This document shows, in pieces, positions 227 through 64,000 of a stretch of 64,000 nt of DNA. The notes under the pieces are model-generated. The model worked only from the letters and a program-made list of their open reading frames with translations. It did not search any database and was not told the DNA's origin. The position numbers and the translations under genes were made by a program. The DNA comes from Eledone cirrhosa. Lineage: Eukaryota. The stretch's first letter is position 1. Every line of letters begins with the position of its first letter. The stretch covers positions 361,832,001 to 361,896,000 of the forward strand of contig OZ024740.1 in NCBI GenBank assembly GCA_964016885.1, given 5' to 3'.

Positions 227-450
227 AGAAATAAAGAAAAAAAGATGAAATCGAAAATGCAACTGGAGTCTTATTTTTAAGGGTCTGTGGTTTTTCTCAC
301 ATGTGAGAAAAACCACAGACCCTCCATCTCAACTCTACCTTTGAAAAGCAGAAGAACTGCGAAACCGGTAAAGGAACCAAATAAATATATATATTTTTTT
401 AAAAATAAGACTCCAGTTGCATTTTCGATTTCATCTTTTTTTCTTTATAC
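227..450. repeat. Small fold-back element (~50 bp inverted arms) enclosing a hammerhead motif, in (TA)n
   Basis: 227-280 is the reverse complement of ~399-450; hammerhead-like motif at 338-374 lies between the arms. Confidence 0.7.
338..374 (+). ncRNA. Minimal type I hammerhead motif, U3-A8 core variant
   Basis: cct-TTGAAAA-gcag aagaa ctgc-GAAA-ccgg-TA-aagg: perfect 4-bp stem II, palindromic stem III, short and imperfect stem I. Confidence 0.55.

Positions 451-4665: not shown

Positions 4666-4683
<18 letters not shown>
3947..4683 (-). mobile_element. Non-autonomous Helitron
   Basis: Minus strand ends in hairpin ctcggccgaagccggg then tacctcagCTAG|t; the 5' part resembles the other Helitron starts but its TC is lost in (TA)n. 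Confidence 0.6.
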
Positions 4684-4705
<22 letters not shown>

Positions 4706-4711
4706 CGTGTG

Positions 4712-4783
<72 letters not shown>

Positions 4784-4988
4784 ATAGCATTATTCAGTTT
4801 CCGTTAGAGTAATCAATTAATTTGATTATGTAACAAGACTCACAGGCCGCTTACAGTCGAATTATTTCATTTACTAAATTCTGTGGTAGTTCCACTAAAG
4901 ATGCCGAGTGTAACAATATAAAAATTTACAAAATTATCATTTAAAACATCAAAATCCAGATTGTGATGTTTTAAATAATAATTTTGTG

Positions 4989-6959: not shown

Positions 6960-7245
6960 CACAACACACAACACAAAAACAAGATAGTGTAGGACAGAAC
7001 AAAGGAGAGACACAAAATAAAAACCTTGTCACTGAGGAGGTCACAGAATGTATGACGAAAGAGCTTTGTCAATATATAAACAACCGTCCGGTTATCGAAC
7101 CAAACAACCAACCAACCAACCGGAAATGTATAATAAATTGAAGTGAAACCCAACAGATGCGCGTGCTTTTATTGGTAGCATGATCCTCCCAAAGTATAAC
7201 AATATCTGTTTCAACACACGTTTTCAGATAAGAAATCTTGCAAAA
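6960..7245 (+). mobile_element. Short hammerhead-bearing repeat (family B)
   Basis: tgtca-CTGAGGA-ggtcaca..tgac-GAAA-gagc-TT at ~7027-7071; similar to 55290-55620, 57818-58103 and 63492-63980. Confidence 0.6.
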
Positions 7246-17172: not shown

Positions 17173-18134
17173 ATAAACAAATAACGAAACGAAATTAAAT
17201 TTCGTTTCGTTTGTAACTCACTTTTGTATGACTGACGCTTAAACAATTAAGTTAAAAATGTACATCCACATATGTATACTGAAATACTAGTATGCATATG
17301 AATACACACACGTATACATATGTAGATGTACCAAGTCTTTCACTGGTCACTTTACTGTGAGTATCCAGCTATTCTGTATGTAAACACACAGACAAACCGG
17401 TTTTTAGAGTCATACTGGTTTTTGAGGAAACACCTTTCCTCTATTCTCCAGAAAGCCAGACAAGGAATATTGAACTAGTTTCGTTGTTGTTACAACTCAT
17501 CAGCAATATTTACCTATCTACCGGCCTTTCTGGAGAATCGTAAAAGCACATATCGTTATATGCTTTTTCTATGAAAATTAGTAGTGGGCAGACTAATTTG
17601 CATAGAGTGTGAGTACGTACCGGTTCAACGGAGACGATAAAAACAAATAACGAAACGAAATTAAATTCTATTAAATTCCAGCTATTCTGTATAAGCGTCA
17701 GTCATACAAAAGTGAGTTACAAACGAAACGAAATTTAATTTCGTTTCGTTATTTGTTTTTATCGTCTCCGTTGAACCGGTGCAAATTAGTCTGCCCACTA
17801 CTAATTTTCATAGAAAAAGCATATAACGATATGTGCTTTTACGATTCTCCAGAAAGGCCGGTAGATAGGTAAATATTGCTGATGAGTTGTAACAACAACG
17901 AAACTAGTTCAATATTCCTTGTCTGGCTTTCTGGAGAATAGAGGAAAGGTGTTTCCTCAAAAACCAGTATGACTCTAAAAACCGGTTTGTCTGTGTGTTT
18001 ACATACAGAATAGCTGGATACTCACAGTAAAGTGACCAGTGAAAGACTTGGTACATCTACATATGTATACGTGTGTGTATTCATATGCATACTAGTATTT
18101 CAGTATACATATGTGGATGTACATTTTTAACTTA

Positions 18135-46453: not shown

Positions 46454-46455
<2 letters not shown>

Positions 46456-46962
46456 TTTAAAATCTTCCCCTTCTACAAGTGCTCAGATTCGTTCACACAG
46501 CAACAAAGAATAAACAAAGAAAATCTATTCCTTAACAAATTTAAACCAAAACTAAACGGGTTATCACCCCAATAGAATTGTCATAGAATATAAACACACA
46601 TACGCACGGAATGACAGATATGTGTGTGTATGTGTGCATGTATATAATTATCACTACTATTAAAGACCAGAGACCAATTCTGTAGAATCAGGTTTATTCG
46701 TTGACAGACCATGCCTTTGTGTGACCAACACATCCATGTTAAACCGTGCACGTGCACACACATATATCTATATATATATGCGCACACAGAATTCACCACT
46801 GGCGGTTGCGGGGCCCAATCTACATGAAGAACTCAATGTGATCAGAATGACTTGTATTTTAATTTCACTGTCCTAACTTCTTATATTATGGAAAAAATAT
46901 GTGTATGTATGTATATATATATATTTGGAGGCCATTTCTCTGTGTGTGGGTGTATGTATGTG

Positions 46963-47003
<41 letters not shown>

Positions 47004-47255
47004 ATGTGGATGTATGTATTGTGTGTGTGTGTGTGTGTATGTATGTGTGTATCTGGATGTATGCGTATGTGTATATATATATGTGTGTGTGTGTGTATAT
47101 ATATATGTGTGTGTATGTGTATATATGTGTGTGTGTGTGTGTTTGTATGTGTGTATGTATATATATGTGTGTGTATATATATATGTGTGTGTATGTGCAT
47201 ATATGTGTGTGTGTATGTGTGTATGTATATGTATGTGTGTGTGTATGTATGTGTG

Positions 47256-47314
<59 letters not shown>

Positions 47315-47833
47315 ATGTATATGTATATGTATGTATGTGTGGATGAAGGTATGTGTGTATATATAGGTGTAAGTGCACTAAATCCCTTTCTATCAATCTC
47401 CCCTTTCCTACCGACCACAGGAAGATATATGTATGTATATTGCTTCCACCCCCTCACTGACCAGCAGCTGGCCATCTGGCCATTGCTAAATCTGACCTTT
47501 ATAAAATAACCCACACCCCCAAATAACTTCTCATTCACTACCAGAAAGGCACACAGCAGTCAATGAGCTGCTACCAAGATGAAAACTACTATGAAATCCC
47601 ACAATGAATTTTATACTTGAATTTTCAAATCTCAAATTTTAACTCTTCTTATTATTAATTTTTCTTAATATTAATCAACATTTGAAAAGATGGCTTTTGC
47701 AGACCCATCGAAACCGGTCATTTTTTATACCCTTTATTATTTCCTTACCTTATAAAATTATATGTTTTTTCACAAAAAAGTATTCTGTCTCTTATATATT
47801 CCATGTGCCATTACCAACCTCAATTTTCTCTCT
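46454..47833 (+). mobile_element. 5'-truncated copy of the Neptune-type Penelope element (EN tail + pLTR)
   Basis: Closely matches 62015-63434; hammerhead variant at 47677-47724. Confidence 0.9.
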
Positions 47834-49562: not shown

Positions 49563-49750
49563 AGGAATATTGGACTAGTTTCGATGTTATTACATCTCAT
49601 CAGCAATATATACCCATCTTCCGGCTTCTCTAGAGAATCGTAAAAGCACATATCATTATATACTTTTTCTATGAAAATTAGTAGTGGGCAGAAAAAGCAT
49701 ATAATGATATGTGCTTTTACGATTCTCTAGAGAAGCCGGAAGATGGGTAT

Positions 49751-49793
49751 ATATTGCTGATGAGATGTAATAACATCGAAACTAGTCCAATAT
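49751..49793 (+). ncRNA. Minimal type I hammerhead ribozyme (family A)
   Basis: atattg-CTGATGA-gatg taataa catc-GAAA-ctag-TC-caatat; GUC cleavage triplet. Confidence 0.9.
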
Positions 49794-50218: not shown

Positions 50219-50261
50219 ATATTGCTGATGAGATGTAATAACATCGAAACTAGTCCAATAT
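50219..50261 (+). ncRNA. Minimal type I hammerhead ribozyme (family A)
   Basis: Identical motif one 468-bp period downstream. Confidence 0.9.
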
Positions 50262-54842: not shown

Positions 54843-55624
54843 TATATATATATATAAATATATACACAAGAACCCAGTATATTTCTTCTTGTTTGTACAT
54901 CTAAACACACACATAGACAAGAACATGGTTGTGTGATTAAGAAGTTCGTTTCGCAAATATGTGGTTTCGTTTTCAGCCACGGTACATGGTCTCATGAGCT
55001 AATGTTTTCTACTATAACTTCGGTTTGACTAATGTCTTCTGAATAAAACTTGGTAGAAAGAAATTGTGCAGAAGTCTATTGTGTGTATTCCTGTGCCATT
55101 GATCTTCTGCTTTATTTTTTTTTCACTTTTTTCACAGTCACCCTTCATTGTCCAAGAATAGTTTAAGTGTGATAGTCTTTCAGTGTCTTTCTCCAAAATG
55201 ACAATCCACAATCTCACTGTAACACTCCAACACTATCCCACTATCTACTAGTTGGAACACAGACCTATTATTTACATACTAACTGATCAAAGGAGTAAAA
55301 TAGAAGAAAAGGGAAACAGAATAACAAGAATAGTAATTGAGAAGGTCACAGAATGTGTGACGAAATACCTTTGAGAGTCGGACGCCATGCTATGCAGTAT
55401 AGAGTTACGGACCTTTGCGGTCTGAGTTCGAATCCCGCCGAGGTTAATGCACTGGGATAATTGGTGGCTTTGTGAGGAAAGTAGAAACAATTATAATTAA
55501 TAATAAAATAGCGACCCGGTTACCAACCTAACAGATGAATGGATTAATAATAAACTGAAATAAAACTCAGATGGTACGTGTATATTTATTAGCAGCATGA
55601 CCCTCCCAAAACATAATAATCTTC

Positions 55625-55712
<88 letters not shown>

Positions 55713-55716
<4 letters not shown>

Positions 55717-56414
55717 ATTTGAATGGATACAGTTTAGTTGAAAGGAATTTATTGACACGTGTTTCTATAACAGTTACATAACCTGAAAACAGCTGCTATC
55801 TACAAAGTATTAGTTATGCAGACATTCAATATTTCAATATTATTATTTACTGTCATTTCATCAGAATAATATTACTGAGGACCTGTTTGGTTTTTATAGA
55901 GAATATTAGGAGGGAGGGGTGAAGTTGTTAGAAGAATAGTTGAGGGAGTGGTTTTTTGATAGCAGTGAGAATTTTTGGTGGCAGTGAGTAATTAGATTCC
56001 CATCTGTTGTTTTGACATTTTTATAGAATATATTATTGGTTATTTTTCTAAATCTATAGAAGGATTAGAGATAGTAAAGATATGCGTGGTTGGTTTTGTG
56101 TTTGCACTTAATTAACATTCAGACTTAAATTTTTCTTTCAAGTGTACGTATCCTTTCACCCACGCATTCACACACAAACATATTTGCACACCTCTACAAA
56201 ATACATATACTCACATTCCCATAGTAACATGTTCATACTTACATACATATACACATGCATACATATATATATGCACACATGTATTCATGTACATACATAC
56301 GCGTTCATGTGTATACATTTTCATACTCAACTTATCTTTATATACACACGTATAGACACACACATATATACATACATACTCTAGTCTGTGTGTACATATA
56401 TACATATACATACA

Positions 56415-56476
<62 letters not shown>

Positions 56477-57491
56477 CACTTTAATACATGAATACACTTA
56501 CATCTAACTATACACATCAAACATATATATATATTTACTTATTTATATACATTTTCACATATATATACATACTTATGGTCGTTTTTAGACACATTCATTA
56601 TCGCATATTTGCACCTATTCTCATCAGCATATCTTTCCATTATTAGTGTGGTAATTTAAGGTTATTAATATACATATATATGTTGAGAAGAGATTGTTTT
56701 TATATTTTTCTAACTAGATTGAGGTTTATATAGTTGGGGGGATGTCCCTCTTTTATGTAATATTCGGCTTGTAGTGGGAAAAAAGGGTTTTAGTTCGGTG
56801 ACGGCAGAATAATGTTCGTTCAATTCTGTTATTCAACAATTTTTGCTTGTGTGTGATTATGTAATAAATCTCAAGATTACACAATTTGCAGAAATTTTGG
56901 CTCCTGGAAAAGCTTTGGGTTTTAGCTAATTTCTCCCATTTTAGGGTAAACTTTTGATCGCTATCCCTGAGCGTCCAAGCTTTTTCTGCTAAAGTTGTTA
57001 CATTTCTTTGGCTCTGGTGTTTTATTGAGTAAGAATGCCTATATAATCGAGATTTAAACGATGTTGCCGTTGATCCCACGTCTGGATGTTAATTAAGTGC
57101 AAACACAAAACCAACCACGCATATCTTTACTATCTCTAATCCTTCTATAGATTTAGAAAAATAACCAATAATATATTCTATAAAAATGTCAAAACAACAG
57201 ATGGGAATCTAATTACTCACTGCCACCAAAAATTCTCACTGCTATCAAAAAACCACTCCCTCAACTATTCTTCTAACAACTTCACCCCTCCCTCCTAATA
57301 TTCTCTATAAAAACCAAACAGGTCCTCAGTAATATTATTCTGATGAAATGACAGTAAATAATAACATTGAAATATTGAATGTCTGCATAACTAATACTTT
57401 GTAGATAGCAGCTGTTTTCAAGTTATGTAACTGTTATAGAAACACGTGTCAATAAATTCCTTTCAACTAAACTGTATCCATTCAAATCTTT
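55713..57491 (-). mobile_element. 5'-truncated Penelope-like element with inverted pLTR
   Basis: ORF 56753-57079 is a GIY-YIG C-half (VGSTATSFKSR..H...CKLCNLE...LN.R.E...CRH); 57080-57491 is an inverted copy of 55713-56124. Confidence 0.85.
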
Positions 57492-57602
57492 CTATTTTTC
57501 TCCGGATTACTTTTGGAACTACAACTGGAACCGTCGAGCAAACTCTACGTGAGCTGTCAATCTACTGTGTGTAATATTTACATTACAACACAACGGAAAA
57601 TA

Positions 57603-57821: not shown

Positions 57822-57900
57822 CGTTTCTGAATTTGTTTGACAAACAAAATGGCGTAGGATAGAAGAAAGGAAAGGCACAGAAACGAAGAAAGAAATCCCC

Positions 57901-57945
57901 AGTCACTGAAGAGGTCACAGAGTGTGTGACGAAAGAACTATGACT
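57901..57945 (+). ncRNA. Minimal type I hammerhead ribozyme (family B)
   Basis: agtca-CTGAAGA-g gtcaca gagtg tgtgac-GAAA-gaac-TA-tgact; second copy at 63792-63835. Confidence 0.75.
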
Positions 57946-58098
57946 ATATATATATATAAACAACTATCTGGTTGTGGAACCAACCAACCAACCAGAAATT
58001 TATAAATTTGTAAATTTATAAATATATAATAAATTAAATTGAAGTGAAAGCAACTGGTGCGTGTGTTTCTTATTGGCAACATGACCCTCCCAAAGTAT

Positions 58099-58165
<67 letters not shown>

Positions 58166-58667
58166 ATTGAGGTTGGTAATGGCACATGGAATATATAAGA
58201 GACAGAATACTTTTTTGTGAAAAAACATAATTTTATAAGGTAAGGAAATAATAAAGGGTATACAAAATGACCGGTTTCGATGGGTCTGCAAAAGCCATCT
58301 TTTCAAATGTTGATTAATATTAAGAAAAATTAATAATACGAAGAGTTAAAATTTGAGACTTGAAAATTCAAGTATAAAATTCATTGTGGGATTTCATAGC
58401 AGTTTTCATCTAGGTAGCAACAACAGGTTGACTGCTGTGTCCCTTTCTGGTAGTGAATGAGAAGTTATTTGGGGTGTGGGTTATTTTATAAAGGTCAGAT
58501 TTAGCAATCACCAACTGGCCAGCTGCTGGTCAGTGAGGGGGTGGAAGCAATATACATACACATATCTTCCTGTGGTGGGTAGGAGAGTGGAGCGTGATAG
58601 AAAGGGATTTAGTGCACTTACACCTATATATACACACATACCTTCATCCACACATACATACATATAC

Positions 58668-58712
<45 letters not shown>

Positions 58713-58777
58713 CACACATACATACACACACACATACATATACATACACACATACACACACACATATATATACACAT

Positions 58778-58833
<56 letters not shown>

Positions 58834-59047
58834 CCACACATACATACACACACACACACATATATATATACATACACACATACAAACATACACACACACA
58901 CACATATATATACACACATACACACACATATATATACACACACACACACAAGCATTTATATATATATATATACATACAGACACATATATTTTTTCCATAA
59001 TATAAGAAGTTGACGAACCTGAACCAGAAAGAAAACTCCGTGAACAA

Positions 59048-59830
59048 ATGTCACTCAACAGGATAAACATGGAAATAGAACTCCTAAAATTAAGGGCCAC
59101 CTCAAACGAGCAAGAGTATAAGGATACTGATAAAAATATGGAGGAAGAATGCACTAAAAAGGCCGAGGGAACAACCCTACAAAATTTAATCAAATCGTGG
59201 AAACAGGACTGCGAGAATGCAGAAACTATTTCCCTTAAACGGTGGGAAAAATCCGAAAACTGGTTCCTCAAATATGAAGAAGACTTTAAAAGGACGCACC
59301 AAACAGGTAACCCCTTTATAAAGCATTTGAACATAACAAGAACTACAACAGACACATTTACACCACCAAACCCAACACACACTAACCACAGGCACATCCC
59401 CCACCAACACAAACCAAATACGGCCAACTACACCAAAAGAAACACACCCAACTACCACAACACAGGTTTCCGTAGAAATGCCCCCTACATAAACCAGCGA
59501 CGAAATAACATAGATCCAACTCACAACACACACACCACATTCCTCAGAAGAAATCCACCCAGACCACTTGAAATCACAACAGAACTTACCCACAACCACA
59601 CCAGACATCACCCTCAATCCAACAAAAGACAACCCCCCAGCCTCAACACTCTGTACCACAGAAATAACGCACCCAGACCACATGAACCAACAACAGAACC
59701 CTTGCTCATCAACAACCACAACACATACCACCCCCACCATCACATTCACCCTCATGAAACAACAAGCTACAGACCCACACGCAACAGACCAACAAAATAT
59801 AATCACACACAAAACTACATTCCTTTTTAA
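59048..59830 (+). CDS. Penelope N-terminal region ORF (helical domain + low-complexity H/T/N/P linker), 5'-truncated
   Basis: 260 aa; the frame is open from the pLTR junction (~59012) and overlaps the RT frame by 9 codons. Confidence 0.7.
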   Translation: MSLNRINMEIELLKLRATSNEQEYKDTDKNMEEECTKKAEGTTLQNLIKSWKQDCENAETISLKRWEKSENWFLKYEEDFKRTHQTGNPFIKHLNITRTTTDTFTPPNPTHTNHRHIPHQHKPNTANYTKRNTPNYHNTGFRRNAPYINQRRNNIDPTHNTHTTFLRRNPPRPLEITTELTHNHTRHHPQSNKRQPPSLNTLYHRNNAPRPHEPTTEPLLINNHNTYHPHHHIHPHETTSYRPTRNRPTKYNHTQNYIPF

Positions 59831-59859
59831 GGGAAAAGCCTGAAATACCAGGATACTCG

Positions 59860-62136
59860 ATGGCCCCCCCTCAGGAGAAACCAAAAATAATCAACCTCTC
59901 AAAGACACCTCTAACCAACACACAAATCAACATTTTAAGTAAGGGCCTGAAATTTATACCTACACCACGTAAACCAAACTTCCCCGAAATGAAGGATGAC
60001 ATCATGGAATACTGCCGAAAGCTGCGACTAACGGAATTCTTCCACAACGACACCAACACTGAAGACGAATCACTGGTTAGAAATAAAAGCAATTTCTGCC
60101 CACAAAAGGGAAGAAATAAAGCACTGGACACGTACTGCGAACACATCACCAACTTTCCCTATGAAAAAATTACAAATAAACACACGAAATCAAACCTATC
60201 TACACACGAATGGGAAGAATTATTCACACTTAGAAACAACCCTGAGATAACTATCAAAGAAGCCGATAAAGGCAGTACTGTTGTCATTATGAATACGGAC
60301 TACTATAGGACCCTCGCACTTAACATTTTAGAAAACAACACATACTATGAAAAAACAGAAAACTACAAACACACCAAAACAATGGGGAACCTTTTGACCT
60401 TACTGAATAAATACCGCAACAGCTTAACCACAAAAGAGTTTAACTATATAAGCCACTTCAAATGCAATACAAGCTCTTTTTACGGCTTACCGAAACTTCA
60501 CAAATGTAAACCCATAAACGATGCATGTGACACCTCAACCAACAATTACATTGAACTAACACCACCAGAAGACCTAAAACTCAGGCCAATTATAGCAGGC
60601 CCTACATGTGAAACCCACAGACTTAGCAACTTTCTGGACATCCTACTGAAACCCTTTCTACAACATATACAGAGCTACATACGAGATGACCTTGACATGC
60701 TGAAACACCTCCCTAAAACAGTAAGTGCAAATACAATTCTTGTCTCCTTTGACGTAATAAACCTCTACACAAACATACCTCACAACTATGGAATAACAGC
60801 AGTCCAATACTGGCTTAACACACACCCATCAGAAATACCGACACGCATCAACACAGATTTTATCACTGACGGACTCCGCTTTACCCTACAAAATAACTAC
60901 TTCACATTCAATGGTTCAACATACAGACAAGTATCAGGTACGGCAATGGGCACGAAAGTAGCACCCACATATGCCAACCTAGTCATGGGATTCCATGAAC
61001 AACAAATATACAGTCAGTCCCTTCTCTTATTTGGAGACTCTTTCCACACACACCTCAAAGCCAATTGGAAAAGATATCTAGACGACTGCTTTATCCTATG
61101 GCAAGAAGACATGAACTCACTTACTACGTTTAAAAACATGATAAACAACATAGATAATAACATACAATTCACAATGGAATCCAATCCTAAGGAATTAGCC
61201 TTCTTGGATATTCTCATCTCTGTAATAGACGGGAAATTAGATACAGATATATTCTATAAACCCACAGATTCCAAGCAATACCTCTTTTTCACATCAAGTC
61301 ACCCAAAACATACAAAACTTAACATTCCTTACAATTTGGCCAAACGTATATGTACCATAGTATCAGATCCACCTAAACGGGAGCAAAGACTAAAGGAACT
61401 AAAAGACACCCTTATCTTAAGAGCCTTTCCACTTGAAATAATCAACAATGGAATAGACAGGGCAAAACACCTAAATCCCCATCAACTTAACAATCCAAAA
61501 CAGAAAACCACACTCAACACCCTGCCATATGTATCCACTTTCAACCCCAGAAATACCGAAATGTTTGATCACCTACACAAAAACCTCCCCATCCTACTTA
61601 AAGATGTAAAAATGAAGTCTATTCTTGAAACACACAAGATCCTTAAAAGTAAAAGACAACCCAAATCACTTAAACGCATTCTCACTGGACCAAATATACC
61701 CAAACCAATCCTCAACCCTACAGTTACCAAATGTGGTAGAACAAACTGTGGAACGTGCCTCTACCTCACTGAAGGACAAACATTTACATTCAAAGATGGC
61801 CAAACATTTACAGTAAAAAACAATTTCACCTGCAACTCGGAGAACTTGATTTACGCAATAACTTGCGGTGGGTGCAAACACAACTACATAGGACAGACGG
61901 GCACCTCATTACGCAAAAGAATGACCATCCACCGCCAACAAATCCGGGACGCTAACACAAGAAAAATCCCCTTGAGCAGCCATATTGCGAACTGCGCAGG
62001 AATGACACTACCCAACTTTAAAATCTTCCCCTTCTACAAGTGCTCAGATTCGTTCACACAGCAACAAAGAATAAACAAAGAAAATCTATTCCTTAACAAA
62101 TTTAAACCAAAACTAAACGGGTTATCACCCCAATAG
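59860..62136 (+). CDS. Penelope-like reverse transcriptase + GIY-YIG endonuclease
   Basis: IINLS, KGLKF.P, IKEADKG, FYGLPKLHK, RPII, FDVINLYTNIP, GTAMGT..AP.YANL, RYLDD, CxxxxCxxC linker (Neptune-type) and NLIYAITC..C...YIGQT...R...H; uninterrupted 758 aa. Confidence 0.96.
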   Translation: MAPPQEKPKIINLSKTPLTNTQINILSKGLKFIPTPRKPNFPEMKDDIMEYCRKLRLTEFFHNDTNTEDESLVRNKSNFCPQKGRNKALDTYCEHITNFPYEKITNKHTKSNLSTHEWEELFTLRNNPEITIKEADKGSTVVIMNTDYYRTLALNILENNTYYEKTENYKHTKTMGNLLTLLNKYRNSLTTKEFNYISHFKCNTSSFYGLPKLHKCKPINDACDTSTNNYIELTPPEDLKLRPIIAGPTCETHRLSNFLDILLKPFLQHIQSYIRDDLDMLKHLPKTVSANTILVSFDVINLYTNIPHNYGITAVQYWLNTHPSEIPTRINTDFITDGLRFTLQNNYFTFNGSTYRQVSGTAMGTKVAPTYANLVMGFHEQQIYSQSLLLFGDSFHTHLKANWKRYLDDCFILWQEDMNSLTTFKNMINNIDNNIQFTMESNPKELAFLDILISVIDGKLDTDIFYKPTDSKQYLFFTSSHPKHTKLNIPYNLAKRICTIVSDPPKREQRLKELKDTLILRAFPLEIINNGIDRAKHLNPHQLNNPKQKTTLNTLPYVSTFNPRNTEMFDHLHKNLPILLKDVKMKSILETHKILKSKRQPKSLKRILTGPNIPKPILNPTVTKCGRTNCGTCLYLTEGQTFTFKDGQTFTVKNNFTCNSENLIYAITCGGCKHNYIGQTGTSLRKRMTIHRQQIRDANTRKIPLSSHIANCAGMTLPNFKIFPFYKCSDSFTQQQRINKENLFLNKFKPKLNGLSPQ

Positions 62137-62705
62137 AATTGTCATAAAATATAAACACACATACGCACGGAATCACTACTATTAAAGACCAGAGACCAAT
62201 TCTGTAGAATCAGGTTTATTCATTGACAGACCATGCCTTTGTGTGACCAACACATCCATGTTAAACCCTGCACGTGCACACACATATATCTATATATATA
62301 TGCGCACACAGAATTCACCACTGTCGGTTGCGGGGCCCAATCTACATGAAGAACTCAATGTGATCAGAATGACTTGTATTTTAATTTCACTGCCCCAACT
62401 TCTTATATTATGGAAAAAATATATGTGTCTGTATGTATATATATATATATATATATTTGAAGGCCATTTCTCTGTGTGTGGGTGTATGTATGTGTATATG
62501 TGTGTGTGTGTGCATGTGTGTGCATGTGGATGTATGTATTGTGTGTGCGTGTGTGTGTGTGTGTGTGTATGTATGTGGGTATCTGGATGTATGCGTATGT
62601 GTATATATATATATATATATATGCATGTGTGTGTGTGTGTATATATATGTGTGTGTATGTGTGTATATATATGTGTGTGTGTGTGTATGTTTGTATGTGT
62701 GTATG

Positions 62706-62738
<33 letters not shown>

Positions 62739-62879
62739 ATGTATGTGTGTATCTGGATGTATGTGTATGTATATATATGTGTGTGTGTGTGTATATATAT
62801 ATATGTGTGTGTGTATGTGTATATATGTGTGTGTGTGTGTGTGTGTATGTATATGTATGTGTGTGTGTATGTATGTGTG

Positions 62880-62920
<41 letters not shown>

Positions 62921-63282
62921 GTATATGTATATGTATGTATGTGTGGATGAAGGTATGTGTGTATATATAGGTGTAAGTGCACTAAATCCCTTTTTATCAC
63001 GCTCCACTCCCCTACCCACCACAGGAAGATATGTGTATGTATATTGCTTCCACCCCCTCACTGACCAGCAGCTGGCCAGTTGGTGATTGCTAAATCTGAC
63101 CTTTATAAAATAACCCACACCCCAAATAACTTCTCATTCACTACCAGAAAGGGACACAGCAGTCAACCTGTTGTTGCTACCTAGATGAAAACTGCTATGA
63201 AATCCCACAATGAATTTTATACTTGAATTTTCAAGTCTCAAATTTTAACTCTTCGTATTATTAATTTTTCTTAATATTAATC

Positions 63283-63330
63283 AACATTTGAAAAGATGGC
63301 TTTTGCAGACCCATCGAAACCGGTCATTTT
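63283..63330 (+). ncRNA. pLTR hammerhead, U3-A8 variant
   Basis: aacat-TTGAAAA-gatgg..ccatc-GAAA-ccgg-TC-atttt; the same core is in copies at 47677-47724 (+) and 58264-58311 (-). Confidence 0.7.
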
Positions 63331-63491
63331 TTATACCCTTTATTATTTCCTTACCTTATAAAATTATGTTTTTTCACAAAAAAGTATTCTGTCTCTTATA
63401 TATTCCATGTGCCATTACCAACCTCAATTTTCTCTATAACCTTCGTTTTGTGTAGAAAATTACACTTTTCATATATATATATATATATATT

Positions 63492-63980
63492 ATTTCGTTT
63501 CTGAATTTGTTTAGCAAGATTCTTTATCTGAAATCGTGTGTTGAAACCGATATTGTTATACTTTGGGAGGGTCATGTTGCCAATAAGAAACACACGCACC
63601 AGTTGCTTTCACTTCAATTTATTATAATAAATTTATAAATTTATAAATTTCTGGTTGGTTGGTTGGTTCCACAACCAGATAGTTGTTTATATATTGTCAT
63701 AGTTCTTTCGTCACACACTCTGTGACGAAATGTTTCAAAATGGCGTAGGACAGAACAAAGGAGAGGCATAGAAACAAAGAAAGGAATCCCCAGTCACTGA
63801 AGAGGTCACAGAGTGTGTGACGAAAGAACTATGACAATATATAAACAACTATCTGGTTGTGGAACCAACCAACCAACCAGAAATTTATAAATTTATAAAT
63901 TTATTATAATAAATTGAAGTGAAAGCAACTGGTGCGTGTGTTTCTTATTGGCAACATGACCCTCCCAAAGTATAACAATA
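63492..63980. mobile_element. Fold-back copy of hammerhead family B
   Basis: 63550-63726 is inverted at 63806-63980; hammerhead at 63792-63835. Confidence 0.75.
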
Positions 63981-64000
63981 TATATATATTAGTTTTGCCG

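What the first reader, a model, noticed from the sequence alone, without database searches (positions are those of the whole stretch)
63283..63330. Intact Penelope element uses a U3-A8 compensatory hammerhead core
Seen: the core reads UUGAAAA instead of CUGANGA in all three pLTR copies, with intact stem II, GAAA, palindromic ACCGGT and a GUC site. Established: positions 3 and 8 form a tertiary Watson-Crick pair (C3-G8) that tolerates compensatory swaps. Inference: a functional natural variant that standard descriptors would miss. Stem I is weak (one mismatch), which is a caveat.
Basis: partly seen in the sequence, partly recalled or inferred. Interest (0 to 1): 0.72.

Follow-up and report, generated by a model that had tools for sequence, protein, structure and literature searches.

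The report
Penelope hammerhead motif, known U-A core
This is a real copy of the small hammerhead self-cutting RNA motif that Penelope-like jumping genes carry, with a U-A pair in place of the usual C-G pair in its core; that swap has been in print since 2011-2014, so it is a new example of a known thing, and whether it would cut is untested.

Summary
The 38-mer TTGAAAA-GATGG..CCATC-GAAA-CCGG-TC occurs exactly three times in the window: 47682(+), 58269(-) and 63288(+). None is expected by chance.

It lies about 110 nt before the 3' end of a Penelope-like element. [quoted passage not shown]

The three "pLTRs" are not LTR-like flanks. They are:
- the element's own 3' UTR;
- an abutting inverted 5'-truncated copy;
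- a separate truncated copy 15.6 kb upstream.

Genome-wide, the U3-A8 boxes with the ACCGGT palindrome occur 16,970 times (reversed control: 1). The canonical C3-G8 version of the same descriptor occurs twice (control: 140). At least four families share only the core boxes. Each has its own paired helix II, and H17 is never G.

So this is a conserved hammerhead-type motif, not chance. It is not new, however:
- natural U3-A8 covariation was reported by Perreault et al. in 2011;
- it was reported in Penelope-like elements of Schistosoma by Cervera and de la Pena in 2014, with a UUGAAAA core in their supplement.

Earlier notes of this scan reached the same verdict on other DNA, including this genome.

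Cleavage is untested. Helix I is very weak, energy models prefer other folds, and no RNA data could be had.

The parts
63283..63287 (+). Helix I, 5' strand (AACAU; positions 2.5-2.1)
   Evidence: Pairs with 63326-63330 as A-U, U-A, C.U mismatch, A-U, A-U. Adding it costs energy in the nearest-neighbour model.
63288..63294 (+). Core box 1, UUGAAAA (U3 U4 G5 A6 A7 A8 A9)
   Evidence: Read directly. The same box is found in four families of this genome.
63295..63315 (+). Helix II hairpin: GAUGG / CCAUC (5 bp, G10.1-C11.1) with 11-nt loop CUUUUGCAGAC
   Evidence: Helix II alone is -4.4 kcal/mol.
63316..63319 (+). Core box 2, GAAA (G12 A13 A14 A15.1)
   Evidence: Read directly.
63319..63324 (+). 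Palindrome ACCGGU in place of helix III. It cannot close as a hairpin (2-nt loop) but can pair with a second copy.
   Evidence: The ACCGGU/ACCGGU duplex is -8.3 kcal/mol.
63325..63326 (+). Predicted cleavage site: after C17 (63325), before A1.1 (63326)
   Evidence: Inferred from the hammerhead numbering; not tested.
63326..63330 (+). Helix I, 3' strand (AUUUU), the start of a T6 run
59860..62136 (+). [quoted passage not shown]
   Evidence: RVT_1: 30.4 bits (cutoff 29.6), aa 240-428. GIY-YIG: 29.3 bits (cutoff 22.6), aa 663-753.
59013..63436 (+). ORF-bearing copy of the element. Its 3' UTR 62137-63436 holds an internal (TG/TA)n stretch and the motif about 110 nt from the end.
   Evidence: Similarity to other genomic copies runs from 59013 to about 63436-63487. 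All three window copies end at ...CAATTTTCTCT, followed by (CT)n or (TA)n.
58159..58989 (-). Inverted 5'-truncated copy abutting the ORF-bearing copy; holds the motif at 58269-58306 (-)
   Evidence: Inverted repeat I1, 831 nt, 89% complementary.
46454..47831 (+). Separate 5'-truncated copy (last ~120 nt of the ORF plus the 3' UTR); holds the motif at 47682-47719 (+)
   Evidence: Direct repeats D13, D14, D16. blastn: 62015-63435 matches 46454-47831 at 86%..
341..370 (+). Copy of a second family (B) with the same U3-A8 boxes: TTGAAAA GCAG aagaa CTGC GAAA CCGG T A
   Evidence: This is the commonest form in the genome. This copy has one T fewer before the core than the family's main form.

Best explanation
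The 38-base motif at 63288-63325 is a Penelope-type minimal type I hammerhead motif with a U3-A8 core. It lies about 110 bases before the 3' end of an RT + GIY-YIG retroelement copy with an open 758-codon frame. It is predicted to cut after C63325 only when two copies pair through their ACCGGU palindromes, or with help from the element's own protein.

Shown: the motif, its place in the element, its abundance, and its conservation across families that are otherwise unalignable.

Inferred:
- U3 and A8 pair as C3 and G8 do in solved hammerheads.
- The active form is a double hammerhead, or is protein-assisted, because helix III cannot close in one molecule and helix I is only four A-U pairs.
- Cutting is slow, and it is not needed for the copying step itself, since every copy, however truncated at its 5' end, carries both sides of the site.

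Its likely role is occasional processing of read-through or tandem transcripts into unit RNAs. Same-strand pairs 4.7-4.9 kb apart exist elsewhere in the genome.
For: (1) Core. U4, G5, A6, A9, G10.1-C11.1, G12, A13, A14, A15.1, U16.1 and C17 are all in place. The only two departures from CUGANGA are C3 to U and G8 to A, the two partners of one pair.

(2) Abundance. TTGAAAAG-N8-30-CGAAACCGGT occurs 8,622 + 8,348 times in the genome, against 0 + 1 for the reversed control. The exact 38-mer occurs 958 + 927 times, against 0 + 0.

(3) The same descriptor with a C3-G8 core gives 0 + 2 hits against 69 + 71 for its control. In this motif type the U-A form is therefore the only one.

(4) Four families (A here; B; C in L106; D in L107-L109) share the two boxes and the palindrome.
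- Their helix II sequences differ: GAUGG/CCAUC, GCAG/CUGC, GGCUUG/CAAGCC, GUU/AGC.
- 6 of 7 representatives form 3-6 bp. D3, with 1 bp, does not.
- H17 is C, A or U in 7 of 7.
- Position 2.1 pairs with 1.1 in 7 of 7.
- Flanks of A and B do not align.

(5) Context is as published for PLE hammerheads.
- The motif is in the 3' UTR/pLTR of an RT + GIY-YIG element, with an inverted 5'-truncated copy upstream.
- Among the first 100 rows, counted by hand: 24 (-,+) neighbour pairs within 6 kb, 5 same-strand pairs 4,670-4,885 apart, and 0 (+,-) pairs.
- This fits the 'dual motifs in opposite strands' and tandem forms of Cervera and de la Pena 2014 and Craig et al. 2021.

(6) The family is young: 42 of 42 listed matches are 100% identical over 229 nt.

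(7) Print. U3-A8 is reported as natural and as active in vitro (Perreault 2011 passage) and as present in PLEs.
Against: - Helix I is four A-U pairs with a C.U mismatch. Adding it raises the modelled energy from -4.4 to +1.4 kcal/mol in the monomer and from -18.5 to -12.2 in the dimer.
- The monomer's minimum-energy fold (-9.0) pairs A6-A9 and the 5' strand of helix II with the flank of the cut site instead.
- The dimer's minimum-energy fold (-24.1) is an extended duplex, not the double hammerhead (-18.5). It is no better than shuffled sequences (-20.7, sd 5.2).
- There is no unpaired base between A9 and G10.1, which the 2014 paper lists as a conserved trait of its min-HHRs.
- Rfam gives no hammerhead match even at E<=10.
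- All copies carry both sides of the site, so the RNA that was copied was not cut there.
- In this window the nearest partner is antisense, which would sequester the motif in a long duplex if co-transcribed.
- Published PLE hammerheads cut poorly in vitro. The one studied with its protein was not needed for insertion and left no RNA-seq ends (Frangieh et al. 2024).
Confidence: 0.65

Rival explanations
1. A hammerhead-derived element that no longer cuts. The two boxes, helix II and the palindrome would be kept because the element's protein (or RNA dimerisation through ACCGGU) needs this shape, for example for binding or packaging the template, and the U-A swap would be tolerated because catalysis is not required.
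For: Helix I is weak and variable, 2-4 pairs in 7 of 7 representatives. Competing folds are more stable. Every copy holds both sides of the site. Frangieh et al. 2024: catalytic mutants of a PLE hammerhead did not affect insertion in vitro, and cutting needed the protein. Craig et al. 2021: PLE clades without canonical hammerheads proliferate well.
Against: A binding site has no reason to keep every catalytic-core base and to change only the two partners of the 3-8 pair together. It also has no reason to avoid G at position 17 in 7 of 7 representatives. Perreault 2011 (passage) states that hammerheads with covarying bases at positions 3 and 8 were shown active in vitro.
Confidence: 0.28
2. A decaying relic: the hammerhead of this lineage is being lost, and U3 and A8 are two independent transitions that happen to match.
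For: Both changes are transitions. Cutting is unproven.
Against: The same two changes, and no other core change, are shared by four families whose flanks no longer align. They are carried by 16,970 copies, including a family with 42 of 42 listed copies identical over 229 nt. Decay would scatter changes over the core.
Confidence: 0.05
3. Chance resemblance in AT-rich DNA.
For: The region is AT-rich, and short boxes such as TTGAAAA and GAAA are common.
Against: 3 exact copies in the window against 0.00 expected. 16,970 genome matches against 1 for the reversed control.
Confidence: 0.01

Closest known systems
U3-A8 minimal hammerheads of Cercyon Penelope-like elements, Schistosoma mansoni (Cervera and de la Pena 2014, PMC4209133; passages, section 5 and one supplementary alignment read)
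   Same: Type I motif in the terminal repeat/3' region of a PLE. Core UUGAAAA with U3-A8. G10.1-C11.1. No stable helix III. Thousands of dispersed copies, many as close pairs on opposite strands. Cutting expected only as a dimer.
   Different: The motif here has no unpaired base between A9 and G10.1. Helix II is 5 bp rather than 7-8. There is a 4-base insert (CCGG) that makes a 6-base palindrome ACCGGU. Helix I is weaker. The host is a mollusc-type genome, and in this motif type the U-A form is the only one.
Drosophila virilis Penelope hammerhead variant and similar motifs of flies, rotifers, shrimps and mosquitoes (same paper, section 6 passage)
   Same: Small palindromic helix III; very short helix I (2 bp in D. 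virilis); highly uniform copies in a genome under ongoing invasion.
   Different: The passages read did not say whether those motifs carry U3-A8, and the figures are not held, so their core letters could not be checked. D. virilis has a bulge inside helix II.
Natural U3-A8 hammerheads of Perreault et al. 2011 (PMC3088659; passages read)
   Same: The same compensated core pair, stated there to be active in vitro in earlier work and first seen in nature in that study.
   Different: Those examples are full hammerheads found by covariance models. The passages read do not place them in Penelope-like elements.
PAc (Poseidon, Anolis) hammerhead, Frangieh et al. 2024 (PMC11167929; passages read)
   Same: A PLE hammerhead lacking helix III that cuts only with the element's protein present. 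C3/G8 single mutants were dead and the double mutant partly restored. This is the likeliest model for how the motif here would work.
   Different: PAc has C3-G8 and sits at the pLTR-ORF junction (the ORF starts in helix II). The motif here lies 1.15 kb after the stop codon, about 110 nt before the element's end.
Canonical-core type I hammerheads in the same window (49757-49787, 50225-50255, 49603-49573, 17879-17909, 17503-17473; helix III palindrome ACUAGU)
   Same: Type I; helix II begins GAUG and ends CAUC; 6-base palindrome in place of helix III; H17 = C or U.
   Different: C3-G8 core (CUGAUGA). Helix I is 6-7 bp. Sub-threshold Rfam HH9 matches of 31-33 bits. They lie in short non-coding repeats, not next to an RT frame.

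Membership tests
Hammerhead ribozyme, type I | Core box 1: C3 U4 G5 A6 N7 G8 A9 | tested here: inconclusive
   U4, G5, A6, A9 are present. Positions 3 and 8 are U and A, not C and G. A Watson-Crick pair is still possible and this pair is a published natural variant. The literal consensus is not met.
Hammerhead ribozyme, type I | Core box 2 G12 A13 A14, the A15.1-U16.1 pair, and H17 not G | tested here: met
   GAAA at 63316-63319, U16.1 at 63324, C17 at 63325. H17 is C, A or U in 7 of 7 family representatives.
Hammerhead ribozyme, type I | Helix II closed by G10.1-C11.1 | tested here: met
   GAUGG/CCAUC, 5 bp. Other families have different paired sequences: 3-6 bp in 6 of 7 representatives, 1 bp in D3.
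Hammerhead ribozyme, type I | Helix I formed by the 5' and 3' flanks | tested here: inconclusive
   Four A-U pairs around a C.U mismatch. This is energetically unfavourable in the nearest-neighbour model. Across families, 2-4 of the first 5 positions pair.
Hammerhead ribozyme, type I | Helix III hairpin | tested here: not met
   ACCGGU leaves a 2-nt loop, so no hairpin can form within one molecule. Only an intermolecular 6-bp duplex is possible (-8.3 kcal/mol).
Hammerhead ribozyme, type I | Match to a curated covariance model (Rfam clan CL00010) | tested here: not met
   No hammerhead match at gathering score or at E<=10 on 63200-63420.
Hammerhead ribozyme, type I | Site-specific self-cleavage after position 17 | not testable with these tools
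   No run on record as RNA, and only contigs could be laid.
Minimal hammerheads of metazoan Penelope-like elements (Cervera and de la Pena 2014) | Lies in the terminal repeat / 3' region of a PLE | tested here: met
   The motif is 1.15 kb after the stop of an RT + GIY-YIG frame and about 110 nt before the copy's end.
Minimal hammerheads of metazoan Penelope-like elements (Cervera and de la Pena 2014) | Palindromic positions 15.2-16.2 / loop 3 | tested here: met
   ACCGGU is its own reverse complement.
Minimal hammerheads of metazoan Penelope-like elements (Cervera and de la Pena 2014) | Unpaired nucleotide between A9 and G10.1 | tested here: not met
   A9 (63294) is followed directly by G10.1 (63295), which pairs with C11.1 (63315).
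Minimal hammerheads of metazoan Penelope-like elements (Cervera and de la Pena 2014) | Many dispersed copies in consensus families with compensatory changes, often as close pairs on opposite strands | tested here: met
   16,970 copies. Four families with different helix II. 24 (-,+) pairs among the first 100 rows, counted by hand.
Penelope-like element, endonuclease-bearing | One frame with reverse transcriptase followed by a C-terminal GIY-YIG endonuclease | tested here: met
   RVT_1: E 4.1e-07, 30.4 bits (cutoff 29.6). GIY-YIG: E 1.1e-06, 29.3 bits (cutoff 22.6), at aa 663-753. No solved relative at E<=1.
Penelope-like element, endonuclease-bearing | 5'-truncated copies, partial tandems, and an inverted truncated copy at the 5' side | tested here: met
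   Inverted copy 58159-58989. Variable 5' truncation points in 10 other loci. Tandem units in L110 and L111.
Penelope-like element, endonuclease-bearing | Clade (Neptune/Nematis versus Penelope/Poseidon) by the Cys motif in the RT-EN linker | tested here: inconclusive
   The frame reads KCGRTNCGTC (Cx4CxxC) before the GIY-YIG domain. Craig et al. 2021 describe a CX2-5CxxC linker in Neptune. No tree was built.

The most novel reading that the evidence does not exclude
In this genome a whole lineage of Penelope-like elements has fixed the U3-A8 core. There are about 17,000 copies in at least four families, none with C3-G8 in the same motif type, and one family is still near-identical in sequence and has an open frame. 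These motifs have almost no helix I. They would then be obligate protein-assisted or dimer-only ribozymes. This would be a natural system, with canonical C3-G8 hammerheads of other repeats in the same cells as an internal control, for asking what Penelope hammerheads are for.
Probability: 0.3. Interest if true: 0.4.

Novelty: new member of a known kind. Interest (0 to 1): 0.25.

Why it matters
It matters little as a discovery. The U3-A8 swap is a textbook-compatible covariation already reported in nature (2011) and in Penelope-like elements (2014).

Its modest value is as material. It is a very young, uniform family with an open RT + GIY-YIG frame, in a genome where the variant core is the only form of this motif type and where canonical-core hammerheads of other repeats sit nearby. 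That makes a clean pair for testing whether Penelope hammerheads cut in vivo, whether they need the element's protein, and whether the 3-8 pair matters.

It is also a reminder that library models miss this class entirely.

Tried and rejected
- RNA evidence. The look-up of sequencing runs listed no holder on record as RNA. Four runs of unknown kind were laid as contigs. Contigs cannot show ends, so nothing can be said about cutting at 63325|63326. No difference at 10% or more was listed inside 63288-63325 in X1 or X4, but these are assemblies of a repeat.
- Full-length partner of family B. A DNA search with L063:6000-6580 was badly aimed: bases 1-347 of the query belong to another repeat. tblastn over all loci held found only the last 71-95 aa of an endonuclease, 53-55% identical to this frame, at 5 distinct places. 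In one of them (L063) it lies 1.03 kb upstream of a family B motif on the same strand. The autonomous element of family B was therefore not recovered.
- L064, a (-,+) pair of family B motifs 3.5 kb apart, has no RT similarity.
- Thermodynamic folding gave no support for the hammerhead fold. I treat this as a caveat, not a refutation, because minimal hammerheads rely on tertiary contacts and partners.
- I considered counting single-mutant cores (U3C, A8G against A7G) genome-wide. I dropped it because copies decay neutrally after insertion, so equal rates would say nothing.
- First pass on orientation. Among the 42 places I saw only (-,+) pairs. The larger list showed that same-strand tandems also exist, so 'never tandem' was rejected.
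- Literature searches for U3-A8, C3U/G8A, or hammerhead + octopus + Penelope found no paper describing this variant in cephalopods. One supplementary file of PMC4209133 could not be searched and figures are not held, so a mollusc example there cannot be excluded.

Full report
**What is there.**
The stretch 63283-63330 reads AACAT-TTGAAAA-GATGG-CTTTTGCAGAC-CCATC-GAAA-CCGG-T-C-ATTTT. In hammerhead numbering:
- helix I 5' strand: 63283-63287;
- U3 U4 G5 A6 A7 A8 A9: 63288-63294;
- helix II: GAUGG/CCAUC with G10.1-C11.1 and an 11-nt loop, 63295-63315;
- G12 A13 A14 A15.1: 63316-63319;
- palindrome ACCGGU: 63319-63324;
- C17: 63325;
- helix I 3' strand: 63326-63330.

The 38-mer occurs three times without mismatch, at 47682 (+), 58269 (-) and 63288 (+).

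**The element.**
- A 758-codon frame at 59860-62136 matches RVT_1 (30.4 bits, cutoff 29.6).
- Its C-terminal 159 residues match GIY-YIG (29.3 bits, cutoff 22.6).
- RT followed by GIY-YIG is the make-up of endonuclease-bearing Penelope-like elements (PLEs).
- A Cx4CxxC motif before the endonuclease resembles the linker that Craig et al. 2021 ascribe to Neptune (passage). No tree was built.

Similarity to other genomic copies runs from 59013 to about 63436. All three window copies end at ...CAATTTTCTCT, followed by (CT)n or (TA)n. The motif therefore lies 1.15 kb after the stop codon and about 110 nt before the copy's 3' end.

The 'three pLTRs' are:
- the 3' UTR of this copy;
- an inverted 5'-truncated copy that abuts it (58159-58989, 89% complementary to 62605-63435);
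- the 3' part of another 5'-truncated copy at 46454-47831.

This is the published PLE layout: an inverted truncated copy at the 5' side (Craig et al. 2021, passage).

**Is it more than one family's accident?**
The window lies in a 3.0-Gb genome.
- The 229 nt around the motif have at least 876 first-look candidates. All 42 listed matches are 100% identical, so the family is very young.
- The exact 38-mer occurs 958 + 927 times (control 0 + 0).
- The looser descriptor TTGAAAAG-N8-30-CGAAACCGGT occurs 8,622 + 8,348 times, against 0 + 1 for the reversed control.
- The same descriptor with CTGANGAG occurs 0 + 2 times, against 69 + 71 for its control.
- 10 of the first 100 rows are the family studied here (A). 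Most of the rest are a second family (B: GCAG-aagaa-CTGC), one copy of which lies at 341-370 of the window.
- A search for other helix II starts found mostly point mutants of B, but also a form with GGCUUG/CAAGCC (C, L106) and a diverged group (D, L107-L109).
- A and B align nowhere except at the boxes.

In seven representatives:
- helix II differs in sequence and forms 5, 4, 4, 6, 3, 3 and 1 bp;
- H17 is C, A or U, never G;
- 2.1 pairs with 1.1 in all seven;
- helix I pairs at 2-4 of its first five positions.

In family B's main form, helix I is CCUU/AAGG in the canonical register.

All catalytic positions are kept, the two partners of the 3-8 pair change together, helix II is compensated, and G is avoided at 17. 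This is what selection on a hammerhead fold would leave. Decay or chance would not.

**What speaks against efficient cutting.**
- Helix III cannot close within one molecule.
- Helix I costs energy in the model: -4.4 to +1.4 kcal/mol in the monomer and -18.5 to -12.2 in the dimer.
- The monomer's best fold (-9.0) pairs A6-A9 and the 5' strand of helix II with the flank of the cut site.
- The dimer's best fold (-24.1) is an extended duplex and is no better than shuffles (-20.7, sd 5.2).
- Every copy, however truncated, holds both sides of the site, so the copied RNA was uncut there.
- In this window the nearest partner is antisense.

Elsewhere, counted by hand in the first 100 rows:
- 24 neighbour pairs within 6 kb are (-,+);
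- 5 are same-strand pairs 4,670-4,885 nt apart;
- none is (+,-).

Two such tandems were fetched and are unit repeats. Transcripts with two sense motifs, as a double hammerhead needs, can therefore exist, but not at this locus.

Rfam finds no hammerhead here even at E<=10. Canonical-core hammerheads in the same window reach 31-33 bits for HH9, still under the gathering score of 52.

No run on record as RNA was available, and contigs cannot show ends.

**What is known.**
- Perreault et al. [quoted passage not shown]
- Cervera and de la Pena 2014 (PMC4209133; passages and section 5): minimal hammerheads occur in the terminal repeats of all PLEs they examined. They report a U3-A8 variant in Cercyon of Schistosoma mansoni (about 1,300 hits), dual motifs on opposite strands, a dimeric mode of action and low activity in vitro. 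Their supplementary alignment lists a PLE-associated S. mansoni motif with core UUGAAAAA.
- Frangieh et al. 2024 (PMC11167929; passages): a PLE hammerhead cut only with the element's protein present. C3 and G8 single mutants were dead and the double mutant was partly restored. Cutting was not needed for insertion in vitro, and no RNA-seq ends lay at the site.
- Four searches found no paper on this variant in cephalopods. One supplementary file and all figures of the 2014 paper could not be seen.
- Earlier notes of this scan describe the same variant on other DNA, including another piece of this genome. Their verdict matches mine, which I reached before reading them.

**Verdict.**
This is a genuine Penelope-type hammerhead motif with the published U3-A8 core, carried by a young PLE family whose copy here has an open frame. 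It is a new member of a known kind.
- It differs from the 2014 min-HHR consensus in lacking the unpaired base after A9 and in its CCGG insert.
- It resembles the 'small palindromic helix III, short helix I' variants of the same paper.

Most likely it would cut slowly, as a dimer or with the element's protein, and it is dispensable for the copying step. A non-cutting structural role is the main rival. Interest is low to moderate.

Noticed in passing
window 241-438: The family B motif at 341-370 sits inside a small structure. Perfect ~38-nt inverted repeats (about 241-278 and 401-438) flank a perfect 19-bp hairpin (281-322) and the motif. Genome-wide, many family B motifs come as (-,+) pairs 50-150 nt apart.
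   Followed up: partly
window 57845-58100 and 63500-63990: A fold-back ('two-armed') repeat lies just outside both ends of the PLE pair. It carries a canonical-core type I hammerhead, CUGAAGA-G-GUCACA..UGUGAC-GAAA-GAAC-UA with helix I GUCA/UGAC, at 57906-57940 and 63797-63831. Both copies are next to (TA)n, as if this repeat and the PLE share the microsatellite as a target.
   Followed up: partly
window 49573-49603 (-), 49757-49787 (+), 50225-50255 (+), 17473-17503 (-), 17879-17909 (+): Canonical C3-G8 type I hammerheads: CUGAUGA, helix II GAUG/CAUC or GUUG/CAAC, palindrome ACUAGU, helix I 6-7 bp. They lie in non-coding repeats. Two units 468 nt apart are 100% identical over 300 nt (D10). Rfam HH9 gives 31-33 bits, below gathering.
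   Followed up: partly
window 55337-55367 and 7032-7066: Decayed relatives of the GUCACA-type hammerhead. One reads TTGAGAA (U at 3, A at 8) where its relatives read CTGAAGA. All differences are transitions in an old copy, so I do not count it as covariation.
   Followed up: partly
window 62975-63440, run X4: Contigs of one small run of unknown kind differ from the window mostly by A>G (17 places) and T>C (13 places) out of 32 listed. This is the pattern expected of adenosine deamination of the long duplex that the inverted copies would form, but diverged DNA copies could give it too.
   Followed up: no
window 55709-56124 and 57080-57495: A 416-nt inverted repeat, 99% complementary, with arms 955 nt apart (I2). 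Each arm holds an AT-rich CTGATGA...GAAATA string that passed my first loose screen but lacks G10.1-C11.1; it is probably chance.
   Followed up: no
window 63326-63332: The predicted cut site is followed at once by a run of six T (ATTTTTT). It serves as the 3' strand of helix I and also looks like an RNA polymerase III stop signal. That reading comes from general knowledge and was not tested.
   Followed up: no
L110, L111 (G000:C1:61761200-61766800 and 95918700-95924300): True head-to-tail tandems of the same PLE, with motif-to-motif spacing of 4,784 and 4,851 nt. About 400 nt lie between one unit's 3' end and the point where similarity to the window copy resumes (59013). Their frames are broken into segments of 628-639 aa.
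   Followed up: partly
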